From positions 2,356,001-2,420,000 of the forward strand of contig OY740804.1 in the NCBI GenBank assembly GCA_963514005.1: a stretch of DNA of 64,000 nt, written 5' to 3'. Shown piece after piece: positions 5,608-57,610 of this stretch. Every line of letters begins with the position of its first letter. Position 1 is the stretch's first letter. The position numbers were made by a program, and so were the translations under genes. This DNA comes from Raja brachyura (lineage: Eukaryota). The notes beneath the pieces were generated by a model that saw nothing but the letters and a program-made list of their open reading frames with translations, ran no database searches and was not told the DNA's origin.

Positions 5608-5613
5608 GGTGAC

Positions 5614-6693: not shown

Positions 6694-6750
6694 TCCTGCA
6701 AATCTTGGATGTAACAGAGGTCGAATGGCAATCTTCCTCGTGCAATTAAT

Positions 6751-7695: not shown

Positions 7696-7850
7696 AATTT
7701 TGTAAAACTTTCTTACCTGCGGGCCGGTTCCTTACCGCTGTGTGGAGCTGCGCTCTGCAGCTCTTTCGTTGCCGACAGCGACGACGTAATGCCGTTCCAG
7801 CGCCAGGCGGGGTCTTCTTCACGTAGTCACTCACGTGACTCCGAAGTAAA

Positions 7851-16592: not shown

Positions 16593-16595
16593 TAA

Positions 16596-17181
16596 ATTGG
16601 TGATTTAATCTAGATGCAAACAGATCAATGTCCGGTAATCCATACCGACTGACAATAGTTTTGAAAATTTGTGGATTTAACATCCATTCTGTACTGTCTT
16701 TACATTTTTGTGATCTTTTGTCTGCCACAATATTGTCTCTCCCTGGGATATAAATAGCTGAAAGCCAAATATTCTTACAAATACACCAATGCCACATCTG
16801 GTTCACCAGATGATCACATGATAATGATCTTACTCCACCCATGTGATTGATATATGCCACAGCTGTGGTATTGTCTACTTGTAGTTGGGTATGCAAATCC
16901 TTCATAGTAGAACAATAAGCTTTTAATCCATAAAATGCCCCCAATAACTCCAAATAATTTATACCATATGTTTGGAGAAATAAATCCTCTTGGACAGTCC
17001 ATCTGCCCCCACAGCTGGTATTATTATCCGTAGCACCCCATCCAAGAGCACTTGCATCAGTTTGCAAAATCACTGCTGGCTGCTGAACTAATATGTTTTT
17101 AACAGCTTGTGGAACATTCTCAATCCACCAATGTAATTCTGATAAAGCTTCCTTTGGCAATTGCATGGGCCTATCAAAATG
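16596..17181 (-). mobile_element. DIRS RNase H fragment, probably a displaced part of the second DIRS copy
   Basis: ORF 16531-17244 HFDRPMQLPKEAL...TDASALGWG...DLFASRLNHQ is a close paralog of 4495-5607. Confidence 0.9.
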
Positions 17182-35800: not shown

Positions 35801-38800
35801 TTAGAATTACAGCGCGGAAACAGGACCTGGGGCCCATCGAATCTGCACCGACCAGCGATCCCCGCACACTAACACCATCCTACACACACTAGGGACAATT
35901 TACATTTATAATAAGCCAATTAACCTACAAACCCGTACATCTTTGGAGCGTGGGAGGAAACCGAAGATCTCAGATAAAACATACGCAGGTCATGGGGAGA
36001 ACGTACAAACTCCGTACAGACAGCACCCGTGGTCGGGATCGAACCTAGCTCTCTGGCGCTATAGGGCAGTAGATAGGCACAAAAAGCTGGAGTAACTCAG
36101 TGGGACAGGCAGCATCTCTGGAGAGAAGGAATGGGTGACGTTTTGGGTTGAAACCTTTTGTCAGATTGACCTGAAACGTCACCCATTCCTTCTCTCCAGA
36201 GATGCTGCCTGTCGCGCTGAGTTACTCCAGCTCTTTGTGTCTATCTTCGGTTTAAACCAGCATCTGCAGTCCTTCCTACTCGCTGTAAGGCAGTAGCTCT
36301 ACCTCTGCGCCACTGTGCTGCTGCCCTGTTCCCAAACCATGCTGTGATGCATCCCGATCAAACGCTTCAACGTTGAGTGAGTGGAATAGTGAAAGGCTCG
36401 GATAGCTTGGATGTGGAGAGGATGTTTCTACTAGTGGGAGAGTCCAGTGCCAGAGTGCACAGCCTCAGAATTAAAGGACGTTCTTTTCGGAAGGAGATGA
36501 GGAGGAATGTCTTTAGTCAGGGTGTGGTGAATCTGTGGAGGCCAAGTCAGTGGATACAGTATATTTGAGGCAGAGATAGATAGATTCCTGATCAGTACGG
36601 GTGTCAGGGGTTATGGGGAGAAGGCAGGAGAATGGGGTTAGGAGGGAGAGATAGATCAGCCATGATTGAATGGGGGAATAGACTTGATGGGCTGAATGGC
36701 CCAATTCTGCTCCTATCCCTTATGACGTTATGTGTGTAGGTTGGGGCTGCGCTCCAGTACCTCGTAGTAAGCCACCAGTCCTGGCTCCCGAGTGAAGAGT
36801 CCCACTTGACCGGCTCCAGTCACTGGAGCCCCCACGCTGTTGCCACTGCTGCTCAGGGTGAACGTGCGTCCGTAGGTGGGGAACCCGACGAGGAGCTTCT
36901 CTGCTGCCGCCCCTTGTTGCCGCCAATACTTCAGAGCAAAGTCCTGCAGAGATAACCGCACGCACCAACATTACTGAAGGTCAGGTTAACATATGACGAG
37001 CGGTTTGATGGCACTGGGACTCGACTCTACTGGAGTTTGGAAGGATGAGGGGGGTTGGGGGGGGGGTTCTCATTGAATAGTGAAAGGCCTGGATAGAGTG
37101 GATGTGGAGAGGATGTTTCCACTAGTGGGAGAGTCTTGGACCAGAGGTTATGCTGTAGCCTCAGAATTAAAGGACGTTCCTTTACAAAGGAGATGAGGAG
37201 GAATATATTTAGTCAGAGGGTTGTGAATCTGTGGAATTTATTGCCACAGACGGCTGTGGAGGCCAAGTCAGTGGATATTTTTAAGGCAGAGATAGATTGA
37301 TTCTTGATCAGTGCGGGTGTCGGGGGTTACGGGGAGAAGGCAGGGGAATGGGGTTGAGAGGGAAGCATAGATCAGCCATGATTGAATGGGGAAGTAGACT
37401 TGATTCTGCTCCTATCACTTATTAACGTATGACTAGCGAAAGAATCACTGCTGACACAGAGTCACGATAGAGTCATTGATACCAAACATGTAACAATTAC
37501 TTTCATAGATAGACACAAAATGCTAGAGTTACAGTGGGAGAGGCAGGATCTCCGGAGAGAAGGAATGGGTGACTTTTTGGGTCGAGACCTTTTTTCAGGC
37601 TGAGAGCTGCAATCTGAGACTCTCTCAGTCTGAGGAAGGGTCTTTTTTATTTAAATAATATTTTTATTAGAAGTGTATACATATCATAATCAAAACACAT
37701 TTTGTTTCTCAGTTACATATTGTTAATATGGGTCTGAAGAAGGGTCTCGACCCGAAACGTCGCCTATCTCCTTCGCTCCTTAGATGCTGCTGCACCCGCT
37801 GAGTTTCTCCAGCCTTTTGTGTAACCCTCGATTCTCCAGCATCTGCAGTTCCTTCTTTAACACATATTGTTAATAGATGGGGTTTCAGCTATCAAAGTAG
37901 TAAGGGTCCTCATTTATTAATTGCATATTGACTCTGCTTCTATTTGTCTATTTTATTTTTTATAGATAGGAAGAAAAGAAAGAAAAAAAAGCGATGAAAA
38001 AGAATAGAATAAGTTACCAATAATACACCTTTGCAGATGGGCTGTAGACTATAAAACGCAACTGTTCATCTAATCCTGGGTTCAAGCTTCAGCCAGGCTT
38101 CCGTGCCGGACCAATTTACCCCTTTCAAAAAGACAATAAATGGAGACCATATTCTAACAAATAATTCTTGTTCGTCAATTAAGACAAGTCTGGTTCTTTT
38201 TCAAATGTAAGGTCTCCGACATCTCCATAAATCCACATTTTAATTGTGGGGGTTGTTGGATTTTTCCAAAATTTTAATATTCATTTTTTCCCAGTTATCA
38301 TACTATAATCACGGAAGTTTCCTTGGCTTGTTGTATGTTTTAGGCTTTGTTCTGATATTCCTAATATTATTAGTTTTGAGTCGGGATCCAATTGGGTATT
38401 AACAACTTCAGGAATTATTCTAAAAATATCTGCCCAAACATTTTTGATTTTTATACAATAACAAATTACAAAAGTATGAGTCCTTAGCCCCTGAGTGTTG
38501 ACATTTATCACAGATAGGGGAAATATGTGGGAAAATTCTATTTGATTTTGTTTTAGAGTAATGCAGCCTATGTAGTACTTTAAATTGTATTAAAGAATGT
38601 CTGGCATTTAACGAGCATTGATGTATATGTTGTAGACTTTCATTCCAAATATCTTTCATTATAAGTTGGTCTGATTTATTTTCCCATGTTTGTCTATATA
38701 AAATGCCATTGACGGGGCCGCATTATCTAGAAGAGTATTATATATGTGAGAGATTAATTTATCTGTATTAGGATGTTTAGTCAAACATTCATCAAGAGTC

Positions 38801-41800
38801 TCTGGCTCTCTAGTTGTGTAATCTTGTGTATGTGATTTAACATCATCTCTAAGTTGTAGATATCTAAAAAAGTTATTTGAGTGTAGTCCATCATTCTGTT
38901 ATAACTCCTGAAATGAAAGAAAAATACTTTTCCTATAAAGATCTCCCACCGTTTTAATTCCATAATTTTTCCATTGTATAAAACCTTTATCCAACACAGA
39001 GGGTTTAAATGAAGCGTTATTTACAATTGGAAGAGAGAGTGATAAATTATCCAATTTTAAAGTCTTTTTTAATTGTTTCCAAATTCGTATACCACTATAT
39101 AGTATAGGGTTTTCACTATAGGTTTTTTTAAATTCAGTTTTGTGGGAGCTAACAGAATCGAGCCAATTTCAAAAGGCAAACAATCTTCCTTTTCCATCTT
39201 TAACCAGTCTGGTTGCTGATCCATATCTTCCAACCAGAAGTTCATATTTTTAATATTAACTGCCCAGAAGTAAAATTTAAAAATTGGTAAAGCTAATCCT
39301 CCATTCGTCTTAGATTTACATAAATGTTTTTTACTTATTCTATGGTTCATATAATCCCAAATAAACCTTGTGACAATAAAATCAATTAAAAAAAATAAAT
39401 TTGGGGGCAGATATATCGGGATTGACTGAAAGAGGTACAGTAATTGCGGGAGAAAGATTATTTTTATAGCATTAATTCTACCAAACAATGAGATAGGAAG
39501 TGTTTTCCAATACTGAATATTCTTATGTAGTTTATTAAATAAAAATGGGAAATTTAATTTAAATAAATAAGTATATTTCTTAGTCACATAAATTCCTAGG
39601 TATTTAAATTTTTCGTTAACTATTTTAAAGGTGAATTGTTGCAATGTATGTAGGTTGAGTTCCGTTATTGGCATAATTTCACTTTTGTTCCAATTAATTC
39701 GATATCCCGAAAATGAGCCAAATTTGTTATAAGATTTAACAGCTTTGGGATGCTAGTTTCTGGGTTAGTGATGAATATTAATACATCATCTGCATATAAA
39801 GACATTTTATTAACTGTATCTTTAGTATTATACCCATATATTTCTGGGTGGGCTCTAACATTTTCTGCCAATGGTTCAATAGCAAGGGCGAATAATAACG
39901 GGGATAGTGGGCATCCTTGTCTACAACCTCTAGATAAATTAAAATTAGGTGATAACATTTGATTTGTCAATATTCTAGCTGTTGGGTTAGTGTATAAAAG
40001 TTTAACCCATGTGCAGTACTTCTCGCCCAGTTGAAATTTTTCCATCACCAAAAATAAATAGGGCCATTCTACCTGATCAAATGCTTTTTCAGCGTCTAGC
40101 GAAATGACTGCTAAATCGACATTAGCTATTCTATTTGAATATATAATATTAAATAATCATCTCAGATTATAAGATAAACATTTTGGAACAAAACCTGTTT
40201 GATCAGGGTGTATTAATTTATGAATCACTAAACTTAATCTATGGGCTAGAATTTTGGTTAATATTTTCTGATCGGTGTTTAAGAGAGCAATTGCTCTATG
40301 TGAGCCTGGGTCTTCAAGATCCTTATCCGTTTTTGGTATAAGAGTTATTGTTGATTCGTTTAAAGTTTCTGTTGTGTAAAGGCATAATTATACAATGTCT
40401 GTAGACGTGGAGAAATCAGATCATACATTTTTTCCTAGAATTCAGAGCTTAGGCCGTCAGGGCCTGTGGCCTTCCCGTTTTTTAAAGATCTGATAGACTC
40501 TTCGATGTCTTTTACTGTTATTTCAGCACCTAGTAATTCCCTCTCTTTCAGATCTAAACCTGTAAGATTACATTTCTGTAAAAATGATTCCATTCTTGCA
40601 GAACGTTCTGTTGTTTTGGTGATTAAAGTTTTTGATAGTATTGTAGAAATCTGTCATTGATATCCTTGGGTAGTGTTAGTATTTCCCCCATATCTGATTT
40701 AATTTGATAAATTGTTTTTTCCCCATCCAGTTTTCGGAGTTGACGTGCTAATAGTTTTTGTGGTTTGTCACCGAATTCAAAATGTAATTGTTTAGTATGT
40801 TGATAAAGTTTTACGACTTGGTCTGAATATATTTGGTTTAACTTATATTTAAGTGCAGCAATTTTATTGTGTTTTATCATAGAGGGCACAGTCGCTATAT
40901 CTAATTGCCTTATTTCCATTTCCAGTATCTGTTGTTTAGCCCAATTCTCTTTATTATGAAAGGCTTGTGAGGAGATTAACGCTCCTCGTACAAATGCTTT
41001 AACTGTTTCCTAGAGAAGGGAGGCAGATGTTTCAGGGCGGTCCTTCAGTCTGAGGAAGGGTCATGACCCAAAACGTCACCTATCCATGTTCTCCACAGAT
41101 GCTGCCTGACCCGCTGAGTTACTCCGGCACTCTAACTATCTTCAGTGGAGAGACTGCACATTATTACAATCAAGCTGTCCACAGTGTACAGATAGAGGAT
41201 AAAGGGAATAACATGAATAAAGTCCAGTACAAGGTGCTGCCTGACCCCCTGTGTGTCTATCTTCGGTGTTGGGAAGAAGCTATTCTTGAACTTGGTGGTA
41301 AAATAGTGAACATGAAGAAGGTGTATATTATGAATCTACTCACAATGTTATAGAAAATAAATTTGCCTTTGTCAGTGGGACCCAGGAAGAGCGGGCTGTT
41401 GTGACCGGTCACCTTCTCCCAGTGTCCGTGGAAGTCAAACGTCCTCACAGAAATAAAGTCCAAGCACCTGATTAAAACAAGGTTGTTAGATTCATGGAGT
41501 CGTGCGGCACAGAAACTGGCCAATAGGCCTCAGCTCAGCCCAATGCTGACCATACTAAGAACTCATGGAATATTGAACGGTACAGCACAGGTACAGGCCC
41601 TTCAGCCCACAATGTCTGTGGCAACAAGCATTGTTTAGAAAGGAACTGCTGATTTAAACCGAAGATAGACACAAAATGCTGGAGTAACTCAGTGGGCCAG
41701 GCAGCATCTCTGGAGAGAAGGAAGGGGTGATGTTTCAGGTCGAGTCAGTCTGAAGAAGGGTGTCAACCTGAAATGTCACCCATCACCTATCCATGTTCTC

Positions 41801-44800
41801 CACAGATGCTGCCTGACCCGCTGAGTTACTCCAGCATTTTGTGTCTATCTTTAGCTTAGTTTAGTTTTTCTTCAGTTTGGAGATACACCGCGGAAACAGG
41901 CCCTTTGGCCCACCGACCAGCGATCCCCACACATTAACACTATGCTACACACACTGGGGACAAGTTACATTTATACCAAACCAATTAACCTACAAACCTG
42001 CACGTCTTTGGAGTGCGGGAGGAAACCGAAGATCTCGGAGAAAACCCACGCAGGTCACGGGGAAAACGTACTAACTCCGTACAGACAGCACCCGTAGTCG
42101 GGATCAAACCCGGGTCTCTGGCACTAAAAGCGCAGTAAGGAGCAACTCTATCGGTGCGCCACCGTGATTGGTTACAATTTATTCGGCATGCGTAATGCAA
42201 TTAATCTTTACCGAGTTGCTGTGAAGATATTTTTATTGCATGCTATCCAATCACATCAGATAATACTCTACATAGATACACCCAAACCTAACTCAAGTAC
42301 TCGTACAATTGGGTGGCAGCAGTAGAGTCGCTGCCTCACAGTGCCGGAGACCCGGGTTCGAACCTGTCCACGGGCGCTTGTCTGTACAGAGTTTGCACGT
42401 TCTCCCCGTGACCTGCGTGAGTTTTCTCCGAGATCTTTGGTTTCCTCCCACACTCTCCCACTAGTGGAAACATCCTCTCCACATCCACTCTATCCAGGCC
42501 TTTCACTATTCTGTACATTTCAATGAAGTCCCCCCTCATTCTTCTAAACTCCAGTGAGTACAGGCCCAGTGCCGTCAAAGGCCGCCATGCGTGACTCATG
42601 TGGGTACTCACTGTGAGATGGCAGAGATATTGTAGGCTTTGTCGATGACCTCCTTGTAGGCAGCGACGGCAGCGGTTAGTAGCAGTCTGCCTTTGTCCTC
42701 ATTCTGCGCCTCGTCCTCTATCGCTGCTCGCAACTCCTGCAGAACGCCAGAAGGAAACAGTGACACAGGGCGCTCAGTTCAGTTTACTGTCACGTGTACC
42801 GAGCTACTGTAAAAAGCTCTGCCTGCTAACCAGTCAGCGGAAAGACAACACATGATCACAATCGACGAAGGACACAAAAAGCTGGAGTAACTCAGCGGGA
42901 CAGGCAGCATCCCTGGAGAGAAGGAATGGGTGACGATTCAGGTCGAGGCTCTTCTTCAGAGTCGACCCGAAGTGAGTGTGTAATGGGAAGTGCACTGTGT
43001 GAGTGTGTAACGGCATAGGGCGCAATGTGAGTGTGTAACATGGACTAGTGCGCCGTGTGTGAGTGTGTAACATGAACTAGTGCGCCATGTATGAGTGTGT
43101 AACAGCAGAGTGCGCAGTGTGAGTGTGTAACGTGAACTAGTATGAGTGTGTAACGTGAACTAGTGTGCGTGTGTAACAGGTAGATTCCCGGCCCTCTCAC
43201 CTTCAGCAGGACGGTGAACCGGTTGCGATCCTCAGCCGGACTTTCTCTGAAGCTGGGATACTGCCAGTCTATGTCCAGGCCGTCGAATCCAAACTGGCGC
43301 AGGAAGGAGACGGCGGAGCGGATAAAGGTCGCACGAGTGTCCACCGTGGCCACCATGTTGGTGAATCTAACGGGAGCAGAGAGAGCACCGCGAGTAGTCA
43401 CTCTGTTTAGTTCATTGTCACGTGTACCGAGGTACAGGGAAAAGCTTTTGTTGCGTGCTATCCAGTCAGCGGAAAGACAATACATGATTACAATCAATCC
43501 ATTCATAGTGTACAGATACATGATAAGGGAATAACGTTTAGTGCAAGGTAAAGCCAGCAAAGTTCGACGGTCTCCAATGAGGTAAATGGGAGGTCAGGAC
43601 CGCTCTCTAGTTGGTGATAGGATGATACAGTTGCCTAATAACAGCTGGGAAGAAACTGTCCCTGAATCTGGAGGCGTGTATTTTCACACTTCTGTTCCTC
43701 TTGCCTGATGGGAGATGGGTGAAGAGGGAGTGGCCGGGGTGAGACTGGTCCGTGATGATGCTGCTGGCCTTGCCGAGGCAGCGTGAGGTGTAGATGGAGT
43801 CGATGGAGGAAGGGAGGTTGGTTTGTGTGTTTGTGCAGCTCAGGCAGCATCTCGGACGTTCCTTTAGGAAGGAGATGAGGAGGAATTTCTTTAATCAGAG
43901 GGTGGTGAATCTGTGGAATTCATTGCCACAGACGGCTGTGGAGGGGATTGACAGATTCTTGATTAATCCGGGTGTCAGGGGATACGGGGAGAAGGCAGGA
44001 GAATGGGGGTGAAAGGGAAAGATAGATCAGTCACAATTGAATGGTGGAATAGACTGGATGGGCCGAATGGCCTAATTCTGCTCCTTTCGCTTATGAACTT
44101 TTGATCGATTGATCGATTGATTGATTGGTTGGTTGATTGATTGATTGACACAGTGGTACCGTCTGTGTGGAGTTTGCATGTTCACCCTGTGACCACGTGG
44201 GCCTTCTCCGGGTGCTGCAGTTTCCACAATCCAAAGACGTGCGGGTTTGTAGGTTAATCGGCCCCTCTGTAAATTGCCCCTTCGTGCGCAGGGAGTGGAT
44301 GTGAAAATGGGATAACACAGAAGGAGTGTGAATGGGTGATCGATGGTCGGCGTGGACTCGATGGGCTGAAGGGCCTGTTTTCATGCTGTATCTAAACTAA
44401 TCACAGGCGTGGATAGTGAGGGACAAAGGCAGTACGTCCGGGTCTCCAACTGTTAAGACTTTACCTGGTAGTTCCAAAACTCCAGCCTCCAATGGATAGA
44501 AGGGTTTTCAGATTAGTATTCCTGTTGCAAAGAAAAAGCATAAACCATCAGTGCGAGAGAGTTCAGAAAATAGTGGCAGAAAAAGCATCTTAGTCACAGA
44601 GTCTCCAAATAAGCTCCAAACTCTAAAGATGAGGGCGTCACGGTGATGCAGAGGTAGAGTTGCTGCCTCACAGCGCCACAGACCCGGGTTCGATCCTGAC
44701 TACGGGTGCTGTGTGTGCTGCCTGACCCGCTGAGTTACTCCAGCACTCTGTGAAACGTCACCTATCCATGTTCTCCACAGATGCTGCCTGACCCGCTGAG

Positions 44801-47748
44801 TTACTCCAGCACTCTGTGAAACGTCACCTATCCATGTTCTCCACAGATGCTGCCTGACCCGCTGAGTTACTCCAGCACTCTGTGAAACGTCACCTATCCA
44901 TGTTCTCCACAGATGCTGCCTGACCCACTGAGTTACTCTGTGACCTATTGATGATATGACTTACTTGCTTTTCAGATTATTGAATTTCTTGTACATTTCC
45001 TCGTCTTCGCTCTCCAAGCTGGTGAGTTCGTGGTCTTCTGTTATGTTGGCGTAGGCGAATATCAAGTGGGTGCAGAGACAGGGGTCAATTTTATCGGGCA
45101 GGAACCTGGCGCCATCCTTCCTGTACTGAGCCCAATTAGTGTAGTAACAGACCAGCTTGTACGAGGAGACTAAAGTGTGAGAAAAATCACAATTCAGTTA
45201 CTTTGAGTAATAAATTAGTAATAATTGGGGTGGCATGGTGGCGCAGCGGTAGCGTTGTTGCCCTAAAACCCTTAGAGACCCTCGTTCGAACCCGACCACG
45301 GGTCCTGTCTGTACGGAGTTTGCACGTTCTCCCTGTGACCTGCGTGGGTTTTCTCCGGGCGCTCCGGTTTCCTCCCACAGTCCAAAGACGTACAGGTTTA
45401 CGATGGAATTGAATGCAACATCTCCAAGTTTGCGGATGACACTAAGCTGGGGGGCAGTGTTAGTTGTGAGGAGGATGCTAGGAGGCTGCAATGTGACATG
45501 GATAGGTTTGGTGAGTGGGCAAATGTTTGGCAGATGCAGTATAATGTGGATAAATGTGAGGTTATCCACTTTGGTGGCAAAAACAGGAAAGTAGACTATT
45601 ATCTGAATGGCGGCCGATTAGGAAAAGGGGAGATGCAACAAGATCTGGGTGTCATGGTACACCAGTCATTGAAAGTAGGCATGCAGGTGCAGCAGGCAGT
45701 GAAGAAAGCGAATGGTATGTTGGCATTCATAGCAAAAGGATTTGAGTACAAGAGCAGGGAGGTTCTACTGCAGTTGTACAGGGTTTTGGTGAGGCCACAC
45801 CTGGAGTATTGCGTACAGTTTTGGTCTCCTAATCTGAGGAAAGACAGAGAAGGTTCACCAGACTGATTCCTGGGATGGCAGGACTTCCATATGAAGAAAG
45901 ACTGGATAGACTCGGTTTGTACTCGCTGGAATTTAGAAGATTGAGGGGGAATCTTATAGAGACTTACAAAATTCTTAAGGGGTTGGACAGGCTAGATGCA
46001 GGAAGATTGTTCCCGATGTTGGGGAAGTCCAGAACAAGGGGTCACTGTTTAAGGATAAGAGGGAAGTCTTTTAGGACTGAGATGAGAAAATTATTTTTCA
46101 CACAGAGAGTGGTGAATCTGTGGAATTCTCTGCCACAGAGGGTAGTTGAGGCCAGTTCATTGGCTATATTTAAGAGGGAGTTAGATGTGGCCCTTGTGGC
46201 TAAAGGGATCATGGGGTATGGAGAGAAGGCAGGTACGGGATACTGAGTTGGATGATCAGCCATGATCATATTAAATGGCGGTGCAGGCTCGAAGGGCTGA
46301 ATGGCCTCTACTCCTGCACCTATTTTCGATGTTTCTATGTTTCCATATTGGCTTAGTATGTGTAAATTGTCCCTAGTGTGTGTTAATGTGTGGGGATCGC
46401 TGGTCAGCGCGGATTCGGTGGGCTGAGGGGCCTGTTTCCGTGCTGTTTCTCTAAACTAAACGCGTAATAAATGACTTTTGTTTTGTTTATCATGTTTATC
46501 CAGTCAGCGGAAAGACACTAAGTGATAACAATCGAGCCGCCCACAGTGTACGGATGCAGGACAAAGGGAATAACGTTTAGTGTGAGATAAAGCCCATAAA
46601 CGTCAGATTGAAGATGGTCTCCGGTGAGGTAATAAAATGAGTAACAAATGAAAAATAAAATGAGTAATAAATAAATAAAAGTGTGAGAAAAATCACGGCG
46701 GTTACTGGGAGTAACAAAAATGAGTCTAATAATAACAAAAGTTTGATCAAACTATAATCACCTCTGGAATACTCCATCAGTGAATGGTGTTACACGAGTC
46801 CATAAGTGATAGGAGCAGAATAAGGCCATTCGGCCCATCAAGCTACTCCACCATTCAATCATAGGTGATCTATCTCTCCCTCTCAACCCCATTCTCCTGC
46901 CTTCTCCCCATAACCCCTAACACCTGTACTAATCAAGAATCTATCAATCTCCACCTTTTCAGGGTCCCCTACCTGGTCGGAGAGGCAGCTTTTCTCCGGG
47001 CTGCAACTTCGACCCGTCCTCGCGGCCTACCAGCGGGCCTGGAGCGGCGTTTCCTGAGGAGACCGCCCAGAACCTCGGCTTCAGCAGCGGCTCAGCGCTG
47101 GAGCGCCATCGGGGAGCGGAGCGGGCGGTGCCTTGCCTGGGTCGCCGCGCTGGAGCTCCGGTTTGCTGAGACCGCAGGTGAACATCGCGGAGCTGCGGGA
47201 CTGTGGAGCGGCCGGCTGCGGGCGGCAGCGCTGAACTTTAATATCGGGAGCCTGGGATCTCTCGGCGAGATCGCCAGTTGTGGAGCTCCAGTAAGCGTGG
47301 CCTTGTCGGCTTCGGAAACCACGGACTCCAGTAGGGAAGCGGCCGTTCCAGGTGTCCCAAGCCGCAGTGAGGACTCTCCCGACGCCGGAGCAACATCACC
47401 CGGCGAGAAGGCCTAAAACATTGGGCCCCCGACTGCAGAGGCCTCAATAGGCCCGACTATGGGTGGACATGGGGATGAGACTGGACTTTGTGCCTTCCCC
47501 CACAGTGGGAACCATTGTGGGGGATGATTTTATGTTCATTGTTAATTCTTTAGTGTTGGGTCTTATCTTGGCTGCTGGAGGTGAGCGTGAACGCTGGCGT
47601 GATTGGCTGCTGCTGCCCTCTCTACAAATTGTGTATTGTTACTGTGTATGTTGTTTTTGTTTCATGCTTGTTTAATTGTAAGGTGTCATTTTTGGTTTAA
47701 TTGTAAGATGTCCTTGAGAGTCCTGAAAGGCACCCTATAAATAAAATA

Positions 47749-47779
<31 letters not shown>

Positions 47780-50700
47780 GAAAATACCAAATGACTTTGG
47801 CCTCCACAGCCTTCAGTGGCAAAGAATTCTAGAGATTCACCACCGTCTGGCTAAAGAAATGTCACCTCATCTCCTTCCTAAAGGAATGTCCTTTAATTCT
47901 GAGGCTGTGCCCTCTGGTCCTAGACTCTCCCACTAGTGGAAACATCCTCTCCACATCCACTCTATCCAGGCCTTTCACTATTCGGTAAGTTTCAATGAGG
48001 TTCCCGCTCATCCTTCAAAACTCCGGCGGGTGGTGCCGTGAGTGGCAGCTTTGCCAATAGCCTGTCCCGACTCTTTCTATTTTATTTGTATGTTTTAATG
48101 TATCTTTTTTGTTTTGTATTAGGTGGGGGGTGGGGGGTGGGGGGTGGGGGGTGGGGGGTGGGGGGTGGGGGGTGGGGGGTGGGGGGTGGGGGGTGGGGGG
48201 TGGGGGAGGTTGGGGGCAAACTCTTTTTTAAACTCTCTCCTCGACGGAGATGCAACGGAGATACGATACGTAGATTTTCCGTATCGTATCTATGTCTGCA
48301 CTGCGGCCTAACATCGTGGAGTTGGCCATCCCTTTGTTAGGGATCAACTTCTGGAGCTCCGACCGCAGACACTTGGACCGCCCCGATCACGGGAGCCTCG
48401 ATCGCCTTGATGTCGGGGATTTAATCGCCCACCGCGGGAGCTTCGCGTGAGGTCCAGTAGTGAATCTGTACCCTGACCAATAGGTTACACCACTGTGTAT
48501 GATGTGTGAAGGCGGAGAGACTTACCCACAGATCCATGTAACAAGGCCACCAAGCTCACTAAAACAGAAATAAATACACTCCTTTATTTCATATCACATA
48601 TGCGAACATTATTTTAAATGTAGACAAAAATGCTGGAGAAACTGAGTGTGTAAAACTCACCCGCTGAGTTTCTCCAGCATTTCCGTCTAGTTCGTTTTTC
48701 CCAGAATCTACAGTTCTTTATTAAACAAACATTATTTTTAATACTTGTCACAATTTGATAACAGGATGACCAGGAAATTGTCACAATTTAATAACAGGAG
48801 CAGCAAGGTTGGTCACAAACTATTTTATATTAATTAGTTTTAGGAATTTATTTGACGCAAAGCTGTATTCTAAACACGTCGAGTATTCGGCCCAACTTGT
48901 CCATGTCGACCAAGTTAGCGATCTAACAAGGCCCCATTTAAGTTCATGTTGGAGGAGCAGAATTAGGCCTCATTCTGGGCCAATCAAGGCTACTCTGCCA
49001 TTCTATCACGGCTGATCTATCTCTCCCTCTCGATCCCAATCTGGGATCCTTGATTGCCCCAATAGCCTAAAGCTGCTCCTCCAACAAGAACTTGTATAAG
49101 GAGTAAGAGTGTTGTAAAGACAAGCCTGAAGGCTTTGTGTCTCAATGCGAGGAGCATTCGTAATAAGGTGGATGAGTTGAAGGTGCAGATAGCGATTAAT
49201 GACTATGCTATAGTTGGAATCACGGAGACTTGGCTCCAGGATGACCAAGGCTGGGAGCTGAACATCCAGGGATATTCAATATTCAGGAGGGATAGACGAA
49301 AAGGAAAAGGAGGTGGGGTAGCGTTGCTGGTGAGAGAGGAGATTAATGCAATAGAAAGGAAGGACATTAGCGTGGAGGATGTGGAATCGATATGGGTAGA
49401 GCTGCGAAACTCTAAGGGGCAGAAAACGCTAGTGGGAACTGTGTACAGGCCACCTAACAGTAGTATTGGAGTTGGGGATGGCATCAAACAGGAAATTAGA
49501 AATGCGTGCAACAAGGGTAACACGGTTATAATGGGTGACTTCAATCTGCATGTAGATTGGGTGAATCAAATTGGCAGGGGTGCTGAGGAAGAGGATTTCC
49601 TGGAATGTATGCGGGATAGTTTTCTCAACCAACATGTGGAGGAACCAACGAGAGAGCAGGCTATTCTAGACTGGGTATTGAGTAATGAGGAAGGGTTAGT
49701 TAGCAGTCTTGTTGTGCGTGGCCCCTTGGGCAAGAGTGACCATAATATGGTTGAGTTCTTCATTAGGATGGAGAGTGACAAAATTAAGTCAGAAACAAGG
49801 GTTCTGAACTTGAACAAAGGTAACTTTGAAGGTATGAGATGTGAATTGGCCAAGATAGACTGGCAGGTGATTCTTAAAGGGTTGACAGTGGATGTGCAAT
49901 GGAAGGTATTTAAAGACTGCATGGATGAAGTACAAAAGTTGTTCATACCAGTTTGGCAAAAGAATAAATCGGGGAAGGTGGTGCATCCATGGATAACAAG
50001 GGAAATCAGGGATAGTATAAAAACAAAAGATGAGGCATACAAATTTGCCAGAAAAAGCAGCCTACCGGAGGACTGGGAGAAATTCAGAATGCAGCAGAGG
50101 AGGACAAAGGGCTTAATTAGGAAAGGGAAAATAGATTATGAAAGGAAACTGGCAGGGAACATAAAAACTGACTGCAAAAGTTTTTCGATATGTAAAGAGA
50201 AAGAGACTAGTTAAAACAAATGTTGGTCCCTTGCAGTCAGAAACAGGTGAATTGATCATGGGGAACAAGGACATGGCAGACCAATTGAATAACTACTTTG
50301 GTTCTGTCTTCACTAAGGAAGACATAAATAATCTGCCGGAAATAGCAGTGGAACGGGGGTCAAATAAGATGGAGGAACTGAGTGAAATCCAGGTTAGCCG
50401 GGAGGTGGTGTTGGGTAAATTGAACGGATTGAGGGCCGATAAATCCCCAGGGCCAGATAGTCTGCATCCCAGAGTACTCAAGGAGGTAGCCACAGAAATA
50501 GTGGATGCATTAGTGATAATTTTTCAAAATTCCTTAGATTCTGGAGTAGTTCCTGAGGATTGGAGGGTAGCTAATGTAACCCCACTTTTTAAAAAAGGAG
50601 GGAGAGAGAAAGCGGGGAATTACAGACCAGTTAGTCTAACATCGGTAGTGGGGAAACTGCTAGAGTCAGTTATTAAAGATGGGATAGCAGCGCATTTGGA

Positions 50701-52744
50701 AAGTGGTGAAATCATTGGACAAAGTCAGCATGGATTTACGAAAGGTAAATCATGTCTGACAAATCTGATAGAATTTTTCGAGGATGTAACTAGTAGAGTG
50801 GATAAGGGAGAACCAGTGGATGTGTTATATCTAGACTTTCAGAAGGCTTTCGACAAGGTCCCGCATAAGAGATTAGCATACAAACTTAAAGCACACGGTA
50901 TTGGGGGTTCAGTATTGATGTGGATAGAGAACTGGCTAGCAGACAGGAGGCAAAGGGTAGGAGTAAACGGGTCCTTTTCAGAATGGCAGGCAGTGACTAG
51001 TGGGGTGCCGCAAGGCTCAGTGCTGGGACCCCAGCTATTTACAATATATATTAATGATTTGGACGAGGGAATTCAATGCAACATCTCCAAATTTGCAGAT
51101 GATACCAAGCTGGGGGGTACAGTTAGGTGTGAGGAGGATGCTTGGAGGCTGCAGGGTGATTTGGATAGGCTGAGTGAATGGGCAGATGCATGGCAGATGC
51201 AGTACAATGTGGATAAATGTGAGGTTATCCACTTTGGTGGCAAAAACATGAGGGTAGACTATTATCTGAATGGTGGCAGATTAGGTAAGGGGGAGATGCA
51301 ACGAGACCTGGGTGTCATGGTACACCAGTCATTGAAAGTAGGCATGCAGGTGCAGCAGGCAGTGAAGAAAGCAAATGGTATGTTAGCATTCATAGCGAAA
51401 GGATTTGAGTATAGGAGCAGGGAGGTTCTACTGCAGTTGTACAGGGTTTTGGTGAGGCCACACCTGGAGTACTGCGTACAGTTTTGGTCTCCAAATCTGA
51501 GGAAAGACATCCTTGCCATAGAGGGGGTACAGAGAAGATTCACCAGACTGATTCCTGGGATGTCAGGACTTTCATATGAGGAAAGATTGGATAGACTCGG
51601 TTTGTACTCGATGGAATTTAGAAGATTGAGGGGGGATCTTATAGAAACCTACAAAATTCTTAAGGGGTTGGACAAGCTAGATGCTGGAAGATTGTTCCCG
51701 ATGTTGGGGGAGTCCAGAACAAGGGGTCACAGTCTAAGGATAAGGGGGAATTCCTTTAGGACCGAAATGAGGAAAACATTCTTTACACAGAGAGTGGTGA
51801 GTCTCTGGAATTCTCTGCCACAGAAGGTAGTTGAGGCCAGTTCATTGGCTATATTTAAGAAGGCGTTAGATGTGGCACTTGTGGCTAAAGGGATCAGGGG
51901 GTATGGAGAGAAGGCAGGTACGGGATACTGAGTTGGATGATCAGCCATGATCACATTGAATGGCGGTGCAGGCTCGAAGGGCCGAATGGCCTACTCCTGC
52001 ACCTATTTTCTATGTTTCTATGTCTAACTTATATGGGGCCACTTTAGATTGGTGCGGGTGTCAGGGGTCATGGGGAGAGGGCAGGAGAATGGGGTTAGGA
52101 GGGAGAGATAGTTCAGCCGTGATTGAATGGCGGTGTAGGCTCGATGGGTTGTCTGTGGCAGTGAATTGCACATATTCACCACCCTCTGACTAAATAAATT
52201 CCTCCCCATCTCCTTCCTGAAGGAACGTCCTTTAATTCTGATCTGGCCACACCTGCTATTTCAATCATTCCTAGGGTGGCACGGTGGTGCAGCGGTAGAG
52301 TTGCTGCCTGACAGCGCTCGCAGCGCCGGAGACCTGGGTTCGATCCCAACTATGGGTGCTGTCTGTCTGGAGTTTGTACGTTCTCCCCGTGACCTGCGTG
52401 GGTTTTCTCAGAGATCGTCGGTTTCCTCCCACATTTCAAAGACGTGCAGGATTGTAGGTTAATTGGTTTGGTGTATGTGTAAATTGTCCCTGTTGTGTGT
52501 AGGATAGTGTTAATGCGTGGGTCGGCACGGACCTGGTGAGCCGAAGGGCCTGTTTTCAGTGCTATATCTCTAAACTAAACCAAATATAAAGTCAACAGGT
52601 AATGGATCAGCCAAGATGTGCTGAATGATACAGCAGAACGGGGCACTCCAGACAATGGCTCAAGCTTCCATTTTTTAGGTTCTAAATAATGACAAATGAT
52701 GAAAATATCCACCGCTTACCCATCAAGAGAAGTTCTCTGCTCAT
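29655..52744 (-). CDS. GH18 chitinase-family protein (CHIA/CHIT1-like, 471 aa, 11 coding exons) with CBM14 domain; catalytic Glu replaced by Gln
   Basis: Exons 52744-52720, 48558-48526, 45169-44965, 44521-44465, 43366-43201, 42736-42612, 41467-41344, 36943-36761, 34149-34033, 32002-31867, 29899-29655. All are GT-AG and phase-compatible, 1416 nt including the stop. Motifs KLVCYYTNWAQYR, LSIGGW, FDGLDIDWQYP, GFPTYGR, WIGYDN, GGAMLWSLDFDDF. Confidence 0.93.
29937..30769. other. Assembly gap
   Basis: Run of N. Confidence 1.
31090..31239. other. Assembly gap
   Basis: Run of N. Confidence 1.
31867..32002 (-). CDS. Chitinase-like exon 10
   Basis: AQWLMNNKFGGAMLWSLDFDDFSGTRCKEGVYPLINALKSLLNIT; acceptor ttccccag, donor GTTTGG. 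Confidence 0.9.
32880..33358 (+). repeat. Polypyrimidine (C/T) low-complexity tract within a GC-rich interspersed element (about 32060-33445)
   Basis: About 480 nt almost entirely C and T. Confidence 0.85.
33596..33910 (+). mobile_element. V-SINE (HE1-like), full length
   Basis: Pol III A/B-box-like head, V-domain core, (CTAAA)n tail. Further copies at about 35795-36070(-), 41860-42165(-), 42310-42452, 52275-52585, 53648-53850, 54780-55095(-). Confidence 0.85.
34033..34149 (-). CDS. Chitinase-like exon 9
   Basis: TCVFLKTATLKVIPEQKVPYAFKGSQWIGYDNQQSYKFK; ag/gtaggt boundaries. Confidence 0.9.
36761..36943 (-). CDS. Chitinase-like exon 8
   Basis: DFALKYWRQQGAAAEKLLVGFPTYGRTFTL...FTREPGLVAYYE. 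Confidence 0.92.
37650..41032 (-). mobile_element. Decayed L1-clade LINE ORF2 (RT and C-terminal region) in chitinase intron 7
   Basis: [66 protein letters not shown]; many frameshifts. Confidence 0.9.
37728..37767 (+). ncRNA. Minimal type I hammerhead ribozyme motif in a short Penelope-type element (37729-37861)
   Basis: ATGGGT-CTGAAGA-A-GGGTC-TC-GACCC-GAAAC-GTC-GCCTAT: intact CUGAnGA and GAAA core, stem II, GUC site, stem I with G-U pairs. 14-bp flanking duplication acatattgttaata (37715-37728, 37862-37875). Confidence 0.65.
41344..41467 (-). CDS. Chitinase-like exon 7
   Basis: [41 protein letters not shown], 124 nt. Confidence 0.92.
42612..42736 (-). CDS. Chitinase-like exon 6
   Basis: ELRAAIEDEAQNEDKGRLLLTAAVAAYKEVIDKAYNISAISQ, 125 nt. 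Confidence 0.9.
42970..43180 (+). repeat. Degenerate intronic tandem repeat (about 20-30 bp, gtgagtgtgtaacatgaactagtgcgcc)
   Basis: About 8 recurrences of gtgtgtaa(c). Confidence 0.7.
43201..43366 (-). CDS. Chitinase-like exon 5 (active-site exon)
   Basis: FTNMVATVDTRATFIRSAVSFLRQFGFDGLDIDWQYPSFRESPAEDRNRFTVLLK, 166 nt. Confidence 0.95.
44465..44521 (-). CDS. Chitinase-like exon 4
   Basis: NTNLKTLLSIGGWSFGTTR, 57 nt. Confidence 0.92.
44716..44942 (+). repeat. 66-bp tandem repeat (about 3.5 units) derived from a Penelope-type repeat
   Basis: Unit tgctgcctgacccgctgagttactccagcactctgtgaaacgtcacctatccatgttctccacaga. The same unit forms arrays at 63235-63880. Confidence 0.85.
44965..45169 (-). 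CDS. Chitinase-like exon 3
   Basis: SSYKLVCYYTNWAQYRKDGARFLPDKIDPCLCTHLIFAYANITEDHELTSLESEDEEMYKKFNNLKSK. Confidence 0.95.
45403..46344 (+). mobile_element. 5'-truncated CR1 nested inside a V-SINE (SINE halves 45231-45400 and 46346-46460)
   Basis: KFADDTKLGG...YGEKAGTGY*, 3' UTR and (TATGTTTC) tail. The SINE sequence resumes afterwards. Confidence 0.9.
46957..47779 (+). mobile_element. GC-rich retroposed element with a (TAT)n tail, inserted in a CR1-related repeat
   Basis: Ends gaaaggcaccctataaataaaatata(tta)n. The host ctatcaatctccacctt|aaaatacc is split around it. Confidence 0.55.
48526..48558 (-). CDS. Chitinase-like exon 2 (signal peptide)
   Basis: ttctgttttag|(V)SLVALLHGSV|gtaagt, phase 1-1. 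Confidence 0.8.
49095..52023 (+). mobile_element. Young CR1 LINE with a nearly intact ORF2 (endonuclease plus RT), one frameshift near 50185
   Basis: ORFs 49135-50214 (NARSI, GITETWL, YRPP, MGDFN, SDH) and 50231-51931 (RT, FADD); 3' UTR and ttctatgtttctatg tail. Confidence 0.95.
52720..52744 (-). CDS. Chitinase-like coding exon 1 (start codon)
   Basis: aggATG MSRELLLM + G|gtaagc, 25 coding nt. Joins exons 2-3 to give the signal peptide MSRELLLMVSLVALLHGSVVSS. Confidence 0.75.
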
Positions 52745-53268: not shown

Positions 53269-55419
53269 TAAGTTCTAGATCTATGTCATCCCACTCCCTA
53301 AACACTAGGGGGCTAATTACAGAGGGGCCAATTAACCTATAAACCCGCACGTCTTTGGGATGTGGGAGGAAACCGGAGCACCCGGAGAAGTGGGTGTGAA
53401 TCTAGGTGGTGCGGAGGGGGAAATATGTGGGGAAAAGGGTGAATGGTGTTTGTAGGTTGATTGGGAAAATTGGGGAATTCACTATTCATACCCAAGCGGA
53501 ATAGGTCGGTACGGGTGAGGGAGAATTATTGGCAGATAACACACAGGTGGGGAGTGAATGAGAATTTCACCCCAGGATAAAGGTTCTGACTGTCTACCCT
53601 ATCTACACCTCTCATAATTTTACATACTGTACTTCTATCAGGTAAGGTGGCATGGTGGCGCAGCGGTAGAGTTGCCGCCTCACAGCGCCAGAGGCCCGGG
53701 TTCCATCCTGACTACTGATAATGTCTGTACGGAGTTTGCACGTTCTCCCCGTGACCTGCGTGGGTTTTCTCCGAGATCTTTGGCTTCCTCCCACACTCCA
53801 AAGACGCACAGGTTTGTAGGTTAACTGGCTTTGGTATCAACTGAACTAAACACAAAGGTAGATACAACATGCTGGAGTAACTCAGCAGGACAGGCAGCGT
53901 CTCTGCAGAGAAGGAATGGGCGGCATTTCGGGTCGAGACCCTTCTTCAGACTGATATCAGGGGAGGGGGCGGGACAAAGATAGAATGTAGGCGGAGACAG
54001 TAAGACTAGTGGAAAAACTGGGAAGGGGAAGGGCATGGAGAGGGAAAGCAAGAGATAGCAACTAAACACAATATCTAACTAGAGAACCACTTAATATTTA
54101 AGTTGGCCTTCTGTGGCAATGAATTCCACAGATTCACAACCCTCTGACTAAAGAAATTCCTCCTCACCTTCCTGAAAGAACGTCCTTTCATTCTGAGGCA
54201 AAGACCACTGGTCCTGGACTCTCCCACTAGTGGAAACATCCTCTCTGCATCCACTCTATCCGGGCCTTTCACTATTCGGTAAGTTTCAATGAAGTCCCCA
54301 CTCATTCTTCTAAAATGCAGCGAGTACAGGCCCAGTGTCAACATATGTTAACCCACTCATTCCTGGGATAATTCTCGTAAACCTCCTCGGGACCCTCTCC
54401 AGAGCCTAACACATCCTTCCTCAGATACGGGGCCAAAAATTGCTCACAATACTCCAAATGCGGCCTTACCAGCGCCTTATAGAGCCTCAGCTCAGGTGGG
54501 CGGTGTAGAGGAATAAAATGGTTAAAGTTGTCCAGATTGTAAATATCTAACCCTATGTTGGGACTGGTGATCTTCCAGCACAGTGTTGTTCACATTTAAT
54601 ATCTGTGTTTTTCCTTTGAGTTTTTGTATACTTACATTTTCCATCTTCCTCTCGCACCAGAAATCCAATCTAGATCAGATCTAGAGTTTAAATTCTAAAC
54701 GCCATGTCACAATGAGTTTCAGATGTCATAATCCAGGATGTCATGAGTCTACCATCTGGAGAGAGGTTCTTGGTTTTTTAGTTCAGTTTAGTTTTCTTTA
54801 GAGATATAGCGCAGAAACAGGCCCTTCGGCCCACCGAGTCCGTGCCGACCAGCGATCCCCGCACCTTAACACTATCCTACACACACACTAGGGACAGGTT
54901 TACAATTTTACCGAAGCCAATTAGCCTACAAACCTGCACTTCTTTGGAGTGTGGGAGGAAACCGGAGCACCCGGAGAAAACCCATGCAGGTCACAGGGAG
55001 AACGTACAAACTCCGTACAGACAGCACCTGTAGTCAGGATCGAGCCTGGGTGTCTGGCGCTGTGAGGCAGCAAATCTACCGCTGCGCCACCGTGCCTCCC
55101 TGGGTGTGATTTATTAGAAGGTTAACTGGATAAACCATTAGAACTAGGACATTTTCTTTCGCCAGAGGGTGGTGAATCTGTGGAATCTGAGTGGCTGGAG
55201 AGTAAAGGTCCAGAATATGACAGTTTTAGAATGGATATATAGACATGTTTAGCTGTCCTTATATTCTGGTAGTCAATAGTGTAGTCAATAGTGCTTTATT
55301 TGTCACTGCTCGGTGAAATTCTTTTTGCATGTATTACACATGCGGATGCCACCATTTTCAGCGCCATTATTCAGTCAGGTCGGCCCGCACGCTAGTTCCC
55401 TCCCCACCTTGCCCTGTAA

Positions 55420-56881
55420 CTGGGGAATTAGAGGAGGGCACCAGCAAATGGGGAATTAGGGGAGGGCACCAGTAAATGGGGAATTAGGGGAAGGACACCA
55501 GTTAATGGGGAATTAGGGGAAGGACACTAGTAAATGGGGAATTAGGGAAGGGCACCAGTAAATGGGGAATTAGGGGAGGGCACCAGTAAATGGGGAATTA
55601 GGGGAGGGCACCAGTAAATGTGGAATTAGGGGAGGGCACCGGTAAATGGGGAATTAGGGAAGGACACTAGTAAATGGGGAATTAGGGGAGGGCACCAGTA
55701 AATGGGGAATTAGGGAAGGACACTAGTAAATGGGGAATTAGGGGAGGGCACCGGTAAATGGGGAATTAGGGAAGGACACTAGTAAATGGGGAATTAGGGG
55801 AGGGCACCAGTAAATGGGGAATTAGGGAAGGGCACCAGTAAATGGGGAATTAGGGGAGGGCACCAGTAAATGGGGAATTAGGGGAGGGCACCAGTAAATG
55901 GGGAATTAGGGGAAGGACACTAGTAAATGGGGAATTAGGGGAGGGCACCAGTAAATGGGGAATTAGGGGAAGGACACCAGTAAATGGGGAATTAGGGGAG
56001 GGCACCAGTAAATGGGGAATTAGGGGAGGGCACCAGTAAATGGGGAATTAGGGGAGGGCACCAGTAAATGTGGAATTAGGGGAGGGCACCAGTAAATGGG
56101 GAATTAGGGGAAGGACACTAGTAAATGGGGAATTAGGGGAGGGCACCAGTAAATGGGGAATTAGGGGAGGGCACCAGTAAATGGGGAATTAGGGGAAGGA
56201 CACTAGTAAATGGGGAATTAGGGGAGGGCACCAGTAAATGGGGAATTAGGGGAGGGCACCAGTAAATGGGGAATTAGGGGAGGGCACCAGTAAATGTGGA
56301 ATTAGGGGAGGGCACCAGTAAATGGGGAATTAGGGGAAGGACACTAGTAAATGGGGAATTAGGGGAGGGCACCAGTAAATGGGGAATTAGGGGAGGGCAC
56401 CAGTAAATGGGGAATTAGGGGAAGGACACTAGTAAATGGGGAATTAGGGGAGGGCACCAGTAAATGGGGAATTAGGGGAAGGACACTAGTAAATGGGGAA
56501 TTAGGGGAGGGCACCAGTAAATGGGGAATTAGGGGAAGGACACCAGTAAATGGGGAATTAGGGGAGGGCACCAGTAAATGGGGAATTAGGGGAAGGACAC
56601 CAGTAAATGGGGAATTAGGGGAGGGCACCAGTAAATGGGGAATTAGGGGAAGGGCACCAGTAAATGTGGAATTAGGGGAGGGCACCAGTAAATGGGGAAT
56701 TAGGGGAAGGACACCAGTAAATGGGGAATTAGGGGAGGGCACCAGTAAATGGGGAATTAGGGGAAGGGCACCAGTAAATGGGGAATTAGGGGAGGGCACC
56801 AGTAAATGGGGAATTAGGGGAGGGCACCAGTAAATGGGGAATTAGGGGAAGGACACTAGTAAATGGGGAATTAGGGGAGGC
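55420..56881 (+). repeat. G-rich minisatellite, 28/29-bp unit, about 50 copies
   Basis: Unit gggcaccagtaaatggggaattagggga with a variant ggacactag unit; each unit contains TTAGGG. Confidence 0.97.
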
Positions 56882-57610
56882 GTTTTGCATATAATCCAGC
56901 AAAACCATTCTGCATATAAGCACAATCACAAGTAAGGGTGAAGGGATTGAGCAGATTTCTTCCGAGGCAGTACACAAACAGTCGCTACATTTCCGGCACC
57001 CCAATCTTGTAGCTTTCAAAAGTTCTTAAAAATATCAAGTCTTGTTATCGAGTTGTGGGAGAGGTTGGACAGACTTTATTGCTTGGAGTGTAGGAAACTG
57101 AGGATAAACGTTGTGGGGTGTATAAAATCATAAGAATAGGGTAAAAATATCTAGCCTTTTCCCAACATTGGGGAACCAAGAAATGGAGATCGTTGGTTTA
57201 AGAGGGAAAAGGTGAGAGGGGGCAAAACATAATAGCAACAGAGGGCAACTTTTCCACACAGTGTTTGACAAACAAGATTAGCATTCACTTTTTTACACCA
57301 ATACACCAAAAAATCTACCCCTCATGTGAAACCTTATAAATAGCAGATATAAATTAGATAACTTCAAGACTGAAAGTCAAAAACCTTTCATGACAGACAA
57401 ATGTTCATCATTTTACCACCAATTTGGACACAAAAAATGTGACATTAAAACGAGTGCCAGATTTAGTCATGAATATTTAATTTATAAATAAACTTCATCT
57501 GGCCCTTCATACATACATGTTTTGATAAAAATCTAGGCTTAACATCTTAATCAATACTAGGAGAAAAATACAGTAACATAAAGATAATAGAGTACAGTAA
57601 AGATCCCGTA

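What the first reader, a model, noticed from the sequence alone, without database searches (positions are those of the whole stretch)
43201..43366. Intact chitinase-family gene with a dead catalytic site but a retained chitin-binding domain (probable independently evolved chi-lectin)
Seen: the motif reads FDGLDIDWQYP (CAG at 43263-43261) instead of DxxDxDxE. The usual MTYD motif reads RTFD (exon 7). The groove tryptophans (TNW, GGW, AMLW), the frame, the splice sites and the six-Cys CBM14 are intact. Established: the Glu is the GH18 general acid. Mammalian chi-lectins (Ym1 with Gln, CHI3L1, OVGP1) lost it but also lack CBM14. Inference: a non-hydrolytic chitin-binding lectin with two binding modules in a cartilaginous fish.
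Basis: partly seen in the sequence, partly recalled or inferred. Interest (0 to 1): 0.75.

Follow-up and report, generated by a model that had tools for sequence, protein, structure and literature searches.

The report
Skate chitinase turned chitin-binding pseudoenzyme
Skates carry an intact chitinase gene that has lost three of the residues used to cut chitin but kept its chitin-binding tail domain, so it likely makes a secreted protein that grips chitin without digesting it, a pseudoenzyme that arose separately from the mammalian ones.

Summary
Observation confirmed. An 11-exon minus-strand gene (52744-29655) gives a 471-aa GH18+CBM14 protein with no internal stop and all introns GT-AG. The catalytic Glu is Gln (CAG, 43263-43261). 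This is not an error or a private allele: 4 of 4 laid runs match, and the Gln is shared with Amblyraja, Rhinoraja, two transcript-sized contigs and the sawfish Pristis, while 118 of 118 non-batoid homologues keep Glu. Y212F (also in sawfish) and M210R (skates) remove two more catalytic helpers. The four core stacking Trps, D213, Y141 and the three key CBM14 residues are kept, and CBM14 is far more conserved than the linker. Trees nest the gene among Glu-bearing shark chitinases and reject grouping it with a CHI3L1-type domain, so the loss is independent. The same genome holds 17 GH18 copies, 5 without Glu, including a second independent pair that also keeps CBM14. Verdict: new variant of a known kind (chi-lectin); tissue and ligand unknown.

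The parts
52720..52744 (-). Exon 1 coding part (ATG; first half of the predicted signal peptide)
   Evidence: 25 nt, GT donor; N-terminus matches Rhinoraja XP_078276467.1
48526..48558 (-). Exon 2, rest of the hydrophobic predicted signal peptide
   Evidence: AG/GT, phase 1
44965..45169 (-). Exon 3, GH18 start: Y27 and W31 kept; Y56F, F58Y, W71S (45011-45009), N72E
44465..44521 (-). Exon 4, GGW lid motif (W99 kept, N100S)
43201..43366 (-). Exon 5, catalytic motif DxxDxDxQ: D136 and D138 kept, E140Q (CAG 43263-43261), Y141 kept
42612..42736 (-). Exon 6: A183 kept, G187Y (42658-42656), E196N creating an N-glycosylation sequon
41344..41467 (-). Exon 7, motif III RTFD: M210R (41445-41443), Y212F (41439-41437); D213 and W218 kept
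36761..36943 (-). Exon 8: Y267, R269 and E297 kept
34033..34149 (-). Exon 9, GH18
31867..32002 (-). Exon 10, motif IV (W358 kept, L362F)
29655..29899 (-). Exon 11: Thr/Val/Pro-rich linker, CBM14 (29801-29658; six Cys; P451, L454, W465 kept) and stop codon; AATAAA at 29494 and 29451

Best explanation
This is an intact skate GH18-CBM14 gene in which the catalytic acid and two catalytic helper residues are replaced while the sugar-stacking residues and the chitin-binding domain are kept, so it likely encodes a secreted lectin that holds chitin without cutting it. Inferred mechanism: (1) the signal peptide exports the glycoprotein; (2) CBM14 docks on insoluble chitin through W465 and its P451/L454 pocket; (3) the barrel groove (W31, W99, W218, W358, D213, Y141) likely holds a short GlcNAc chain non-productively. 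Gln cannot protonate the glycosidic oxygen, Phe212 cannot steer the N-acetyl oxygen, and Arg210 is predicted to fill the cation/acetamido pocket. (4) The protein would therefore coat, protect or cross-link chitin, or tag it for immune cells, rather than degrade it. Shown: gene integrity, the substitutions, their conservation and their independent origin. Inferred: inactivity (about 0.9), CBM14 binding (about 0.8), groove binding of chitin (about 0.6). Tissue is unknown.
For: Clean 471-aa frame. Gln in 4 of 4 laid runs and in Amblyraja XP_032898113.1, Rhinoraja XP_078276467.1, Pristis XP_051890544.1 and two Logan proteins. Glu, M210 and Y212 each in 118 of 118 non-batoid homologues. CHIT1 simulations place D138, E140, M210 and Y212 at the core of catalysis, and three of these four are changed here (PMC12502790, passages). 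All four AMCase stacking Trps plus D213 and Y141 (PMC10312649 section 7) are kept. The three high-impact CBM14 residues (PMC5459812, passages) are kept. CBM14 is identical at 48 of 48 positions in Amblyraja and both Logan proteins; in Rhinoraja it is 44 of 48 against 15 of 29 in the linker (Fisher p 1.5e-4), and in Pristis 33 of 48 against 10 of 32 (p 1.3e-3). Whole ORFs on 1539-nt and 1726-nt contigs imply spliced mRNA in relatives (inference). The model of P0001 has pLDDT 85 and matches full-length CHIT1 best.
Against: No binding or activity data. 20 of 172 strongly conserved columns differ, several of them in or beside the groove by alignment to CHIT1 (W71S, N100S, G187Y, M210R, L362F), which could block chitin. 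Ym1, with the same Gln, is reported to have lost chitin binding. All five Pristis models lack exons 1-3, so that gene may be incomplete or decaying. No stingray or electric-ray orthologue appeared among the listed hits. The 118 comparison proteins are top similarity hits, not an unbiased sample.
Confidence: 0.55

Rival explanations
1. CBM14 is the only chitin-binding part. The barrel has lost sugar binding and acts as a Ym1-like protein surface (signalling, scaffold or matrix protein) tethered to chitin.
For: M210R, G187Y and W71 loss are fixed in skates. Long stem branches followed by short skate branches suggest remodelling and then constraint. Ym1 is reported to have lost chitin binding.
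Against: All four core stacking Trps, D213, Y141, Y267, R269 and E297 are kept across skates, which is what continued sugar binding predicts.
Confidence: 0.25
2. The groove was retooled for another, probably anionic, glycan, making a two-ligand adaptor that links chitin (CBM14) to an acidic glycosaminoglycan or mucin in a skate gel or mucus.
For: Glu loss plus Arg at 210 makes the -1 pocket more positive. In CHIT1 simulations a cation settles between D138, M210 and W358. Skates make their own chitin in ampullae of Lorenzini gel (bioRxiv 10.1101/687301, passages).
Against: Entirely inferential: no expression data, no geometry computed. Arg210 is absent from Pristis. Arg could simply pair with D138 and plug the pocket.
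Confidence: 0.12
3. The protein keeps weak or altered catalytic activity (slow hydrolysis or transglycosylation).
For: D136, D138, D213 and W358 are kept.
Against: Glu-to-Gln or Glu-to-Asn GH18s are described as having very little or no activity (PMC5827449, passage). Y212 and M210 are also gone.
Confidence: 0.05
4. It is a sequencing error, a private allele or a decaying pseudogene.
For: The cluster does contain decayed copies and orphan exons. The Pristis models are incomplete at the 5' end.
Against: CAG in 4 of 4 laid runs. Full-length open orthologues in two skate families. Domains far more conserved than the linker. Transcript-sized contigs.
Confidence: 0.03

Closest known systems
Human chitotriosidase CHIT1 (PDB 5HBF) and AMCase/CHIA
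   Same: Signal peptide + GH18 + linker + CBM14 architecture; best sequence match (E 1e-151) and best fold match; D136, D138, D213 and the four stacking Trps kept.
   Different: E140Q, M210R, Y212F, W71S, G187Y; predicted inactive; belongs to an elasmobranch-only clade rather than to the CHIT1 or CHIA clades.
Mammalian chi-lectins Ym1/Ym2 (Gln), CHI3L1 and CHI3L2 (Leu/Ile), OVGP1
   Same: GH18 fold without the catalytic Glu; Gln as in Ym1/Ym2 (PMC1945033, passage).
   Different: Keeps CBM14, whereas YKL-40, YKL-39 and Ym1/2 have only the GH18 domain (PMC2717817 abstract in listing; PMC9488994 table). Separate origin: the AU test rejects a clade with a hamster CHI3L1-type domain, p 5e-4.
Atlantic salmon Chia.5
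   Same: A fish GH18 with loss-of-function changes in the catalytic motif (PMC10234404, passage).
   Different: Chia.5 has a truncated chitin-binding domain; here CBM14 is whole and is the most conserved part.
Insect group II chitinase OfChtII, inactive N-terminal GH18 domains with CBM14s
   Same: Glu-less GH18 domains (Val, Asn, Gln) combined with CBM14s and proposed to act as anchors (PMC5827449, passages).
   Different: OfChtII also carries two active domains; the skate protein has none.
Shark 'acidic mammalian chitinase-like' proteins (Heterodontus XP_067913406.1, Heptranchias XP_067863652.1, Mustelus XP_078098321.1)
   Same: Same clade (SH-aLRT 99-100); 60-64% identity to the three shark proteins measured (Mustelus, Pristiophorus, Heterodontus); same architecture.
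   Different: All keep E140, M210, Y212 and W71; they are the presumed active relatives.

Membership tests
GH18 fold family | GH18 profile match and TIM-barrel fold | tested here: met
   PF00704 on six of eight exons scanned; model of the 96%-identical P0001 matches CHIT1/AMCase with target TM 0.96-0.97 for the catalytic domain
Active GH18 chitinase | DxxDxDxE with catalytic Glu | tested here: not met
   Gln, CAG 43263-43261
Active GH18 chitinase | Motif III MxYD (M210, Y212, D213) | tested here: not met
   RTFD; Met and Tyr each in 118 of 118 homologues
Active GH18 chitinase | Measured hydrolysis | not testable with these tools
   needs an enzyme assay
Chi-lectin (functional class) | Catalytic Glu absent | tested here: met
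Chi-lectin (functional class) | Oligosaccharide-binding residues retained | tested here: inconclusive
   W31, W99, W218, W358, D213 and Y141 kept; W71, N100, G187 and M210 changed
Chi-lectin (functional class) | Intact, constrained, expressed gene | tested here: met
   open frame; domains more conserved than linker; expression only inferred from transcript-sized contigs of relatives
Chi-lectin (functional class) | Measured carbohydrate binding | not testable with these tools
   needs a binding assay
Mammalian CHI3L1 lineage | Common descent (monophyly) | tested here: not met
   AU p 5e-4 against a clade with one CHI3L1-type domain
Ym1/Ym2 (CHIA-derived) lineage | Nesting in the CHIA clade | tested here: not met
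   The gene falls outside the CHIA clade; Ym1 and OVGP1 themselves were not in the trees
Mammalian chi-lectins | No CBM14 | tested here: not met
   PF01607, E 3e-10
CBM14 | Six Cys, terminal Trp, and Pro/Leu pocket | tested here: met
   C425, C445, C455, C465, C467, C468; P456, L459 and W470 correspond to CHIT1 P451, L454 and W465

The most novel reading that the evidence does not exclude
A ray-lineage adaptor in which CBM14 grips the animal's own chitin while the rebuilt barrel groove (Gln140, Arg210, Tyr187) binds a different, acidic glycan, cross-linking chitin into a skate gel or mucus such as the electrosensory gel. It would be a structural partner for endogenous vertebrate chitin built from a former enzyme.
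Probability: 0.12. Interest if true: 0.78.

Novelty: new variant of a known kind. Interest (0 to 1): 0.46.

Why it matters
Pseudo-chitinases have arisen repeatedly, so the Glu loss alone is not surprising. What is new is a vertebrate chi-lectin lineage, shared by skates and a sawfish, that keeps and strongly conserves CBM14, unlike the mammalian ones. It shows stepwise groove remodelling that can be ordered on the tree: E140Q and Y212F in the shared ancestor, then M210R in skates. It is also the only member of its clade among the 14 copies from this genome that were placed in a tree, while sharks keep several Glu-bearing members. It offers a natural test of how a chitinase becomes a lectin, and a candidate partner for the chitin that cartilaginous fishes make themselves. 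NCBI annotates the orthologues simply as 'acidic mammalian chitinase-like'.

Tried and rejected
Expression by reads: no RNA holder listed. Four guessed-RNA runs laid on 41300-45200 matched essentially only intronic repeats, which says nothing for or against expression. Assembly error or private allele: rejected. Descent from CHI3L1: rejected. Single origin with the DINWQ paralogue pair: rejected, AU p 3.5e-58. My first idea that the YKL-40 W69 result applied to the lost Trp was dropped: W69 aligns to CHIT1 T69, not W71. The apparent Trp71 in Pristis is an artefact of a non-homologous N-terminus, so the timing of W71 loss is open. The label 'G184' in the script is G187 by the alignment. The careful tree did not finish; the quick tree is cited. 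Before trees I dropped one mis-fused shark protein, the mollusc outgroup, one near-identical Logan protein and two incomplete paralogues. Two of the five near-identical CHIA-type copies (C24 2262k, 2293k) were not fetched in full. A search for SmChiB mutant papers found nothing. The search of 50%-identity representatives did not run, so distant or stingray relatives are less fully sampled. Earlier scan notes were on bacterial proteins or empty and did not bear on this. Whether oyster Cg-Clp1 carries a CBM14 could not be settled from the passages seen.

Full report
Gene model. The finding lies in exon 5 of an 11-exon minus-strand gene from ATG 52744 to stop 29655. The spliced CDS is 1416 nt and gives 471 aa with no internal stop; all ten introns are GT-AG. 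Pfam finds GH18 on six of eight exons scanned and CBM14 on exon 11. Two N runs (29937-30769, 31090-31239) lie in intron 10. The linkers of Amblyraja and both Logan proteins align to ours over all 32 positions, so no hidden exon is needed. The closest relatives are skate proteins at 96% identity, so the window is most likely from a rajid skate (inference).

The substitution is real. The motif is DGLDIDWQYP, with CAG at 43263-43261. Of 23 runs listed I laid four, with four organism labels, on 43185-43400. All 4 of 4 cover the codon in one contig and none differs there, although they differ at 0, 4, 2 and 13 other bases. The identical one may be the assembly's source. Gln is also in Amblyraja radiata XP_032898113.1 (Rajidae), Rhinoraja longicauda XP_078276467.1 (Arhynchobatidae), Pristis pectinata XP_051890544.1 (Rhinopristiformes) and two Logan proteins (taxonomy). 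Of 160 proteins held, 126 were 380-560 aa long. The 118 non-batoid ones all have Glu, Met210 and Tyr212. These are top similarity hits and not a random sample.

More than one catalytic residue is gone. Numbering follows human CHIT1 by the alignment. Skates have E140Q, M210R and Y212F; Pristis has E140Q and Y212F but keeps Met. A CHIT1 simulation study treats D138, E140, M210 and Y212 as the key active-site residues. In it Y212 drives the acetamido oxygen to the anomeric carbon and a cation settles between D138, M210 and W358 (PMC12502790, passages). Glu140 is the proton donor in AMCase (PMC10312649, passages and section 7). Glu-to-Gln GH18s are described as having very little or no activity (PMC5827449, passage). 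Inactivity is therefore a strong inference, not a measurement.

Binding residues. The four stacking Trps named for AMCase, with D213 and Y141, are kept. In CBM14 the three high-impact residues of an alanine scan (P451, L454, W465) are kept, and G453, changed here to Glu, was low-impact (PMC5459812, passages). Against this, 20 of the 172 columns that are at least 90% conserved in the 118 homologues differ in the window protein, among them Y56F, F58Y, W71S, N72E, N100S, G187Y and L362F. That W71 and G187 line the outer groove is recalled and comes from no call. Ym1, also Gln140, is reported to have lost chitin binding (PMC11190707, passage citing Okawa 2023; the original was not available to me). 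So CBM14 binding is well supported by conservation, while groove binding is plausible but open.

Selection and expression. Identity to Rhinoraja is 44 of 48 in CBM14, 327 of 367 in GH18 and 15 of 29 in the linker (Fisher p 1.5e-4 and 2.5e-6). To Pristis it is 33 of 48 against 10 of 32 (p 1.3e-3). Both domains are constrained relative to the linker. No dN/dS was computed. P0001 and P0008 are near-complete ORFs on contigs of 1539 and 1726 nt, while the gene spans 23 kb, so these are most likely spliced transcripts from relatives; the tissue is unknown. All five Pristis models lack exons 1-3, so the status of that gene is uncertain. No stingray or electric-ray orthologue was among the listed hits.

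Origin. In three trees the window protein, the skates and Pristis form a clade (support 100) inside an elasmobranch clade (99-100) whose shark members all keep Glu. Two long stems (0.29 and 0.22) are followed by short skate branches. AU tests reject joining this clade to a hamster CHI3L1-type domain (p 5e-4) or to the DINWQ paralogue of the same genome (p 3.5e-58). Ym1 and OVGP1 were not in the trees, but the gene lies outside the CHIA clade, the subgroup in which PMC1945033 places Ym1/Ym2 (passages).

Genomic context. The own genome gave 17 GH18 exon-5 matches from 18 candidates, all on C24 between 1.72 and 2.45 Mb. Five of the 17 lack Glu: this gene, two DINWQ copies, one DIAWH and one DVDWA. 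The DINWQ pair is CHIA-derived, also has D213N, and keeps a six-Cys CBM14 with its Trp. The other two had no CBM14 match. Of the 14 copies placed in the tree, only the window gene falls in the elasmobranch clade. Pseudo-enzyme formation is thus recurrent in this cluster, which lowers the surprise of any single case but shows that CBM14 retention happened at least twice.

Structure. The AlphaFold2 model of P0001 (96% identical; 50-sequence alignment) has mean pLDDT 85 with a low-confidence linker. Foldseek ranks full-length CHIT1 first. Side-chain geometry of Arg210 could not be examined.

Known relatives and novelty. Chi-lectins are known in mammals, insects and oysters (PMC1945033, passages). 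YKL-40, YKL-39 and Ym1/2 have only the GH18 domain (PMC2717817, abstract in listing; PMC9488994, table passage). Salmon Chia.5 has catalytic loss with a truncated binding domain (PMC10234404, passages). Insect ChtII joins inactive GH18 domains to CBM14s alongside active domains. Searches listed no paper describing a skate or ray pseudo-chitinase. The library lacks most subscription papers; I did not see Hussain and Wilson 2013, and no supplements were read. Skates make chitin in ampullary gel (bioRxiv 10.1101/687301, passages), but nothing here links this gene to that organ. The scan's earlier notes held nothing on this gene or genome.

Verdict. A real, conserved, independently evolved batoid pseudo-chitinase that keeps CBM14: a new variant of the chi-lectin kind. 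It most likely works as a non-cutting chitin binder (0.55 for both modules binding; about 0.9 for inactive and functional). Interest 0.46.

Noticed in passing
G000:C24:2137596-2153521 and 2174383-2185939 (+); loci L009, L010: A second, independent pair of Glu-less GH18 genes with CBM14 (DINWQ, MTYNF: D138N, E140Q, D213N), nested among CHIA/AMCase-type copies, so CHIA-derived as Ym1 is, but with the binding domain kept. Exons 3-11 were found without stops in the aligned parts.
   Followed up: partly
G000:C24:1780737 (L011) and 1823822 (L016): Two more Glu-less GH18 copies (DIAWH, DVDWA), both also with Y212F and no CBM14 match, in a divergent CBM-less subclade.
   Followed up: partly
G000:C24:1.70-2.46 Mb: Tandem cluster of 17 GH18 copies, including five near-identical CHIA-type copies, one gene with two CBM14s (1701223-1701534), one with three CBM14-like repeats (2075057-2075593), a decayed copy near 1865100, and a copy near 2449500 whose exons 9-10 look broken.
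   Followed up: partly
G000:C24:2213040, 2246148, 2275154, 2306386 and 27482164: Five copies of this gene's exon 10 region at 88-90% DNA identity; no matching exon-5 copies were found, so they look like orphans. Four are interspersed with the CHIA repeats.
   Followed up: partly
window 25036-25587 (+), 17675-18232 (+), 11989-12546 (-): Three open frames with Ig V-set domains, two nearly identical and in opposite orientation; gene identity not worked out.
   Followed up: no
window about 3531-7731 (-), with a fragment at 16534-17274 (-): Run of long ORFs ending in a tyrosine-recombinase domain (PF00589), likely a DIRS-type retroelement.
   Followed up: no
window 49066-51928 (+) and about 38000-40960 (-): LINE elements inside intron 2-proximal intron 1 (endonuclease and RT frames) and intron 7 (broken RT) of the gene.
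   Followed up: no
G000:C2:6942509-6958513 (+); L076, L077: Four CBM14-like exons with Thr/Pro-rich stretches and no GH18 exon-5 match on that contig: possibly a peritrophin- or mucin-like chitin-binding gene.
   Followed up: no
window about 55400-56900: Long minisatellite with a unit of about 26-27 nt upstream of exon 1.
   Followed up: no
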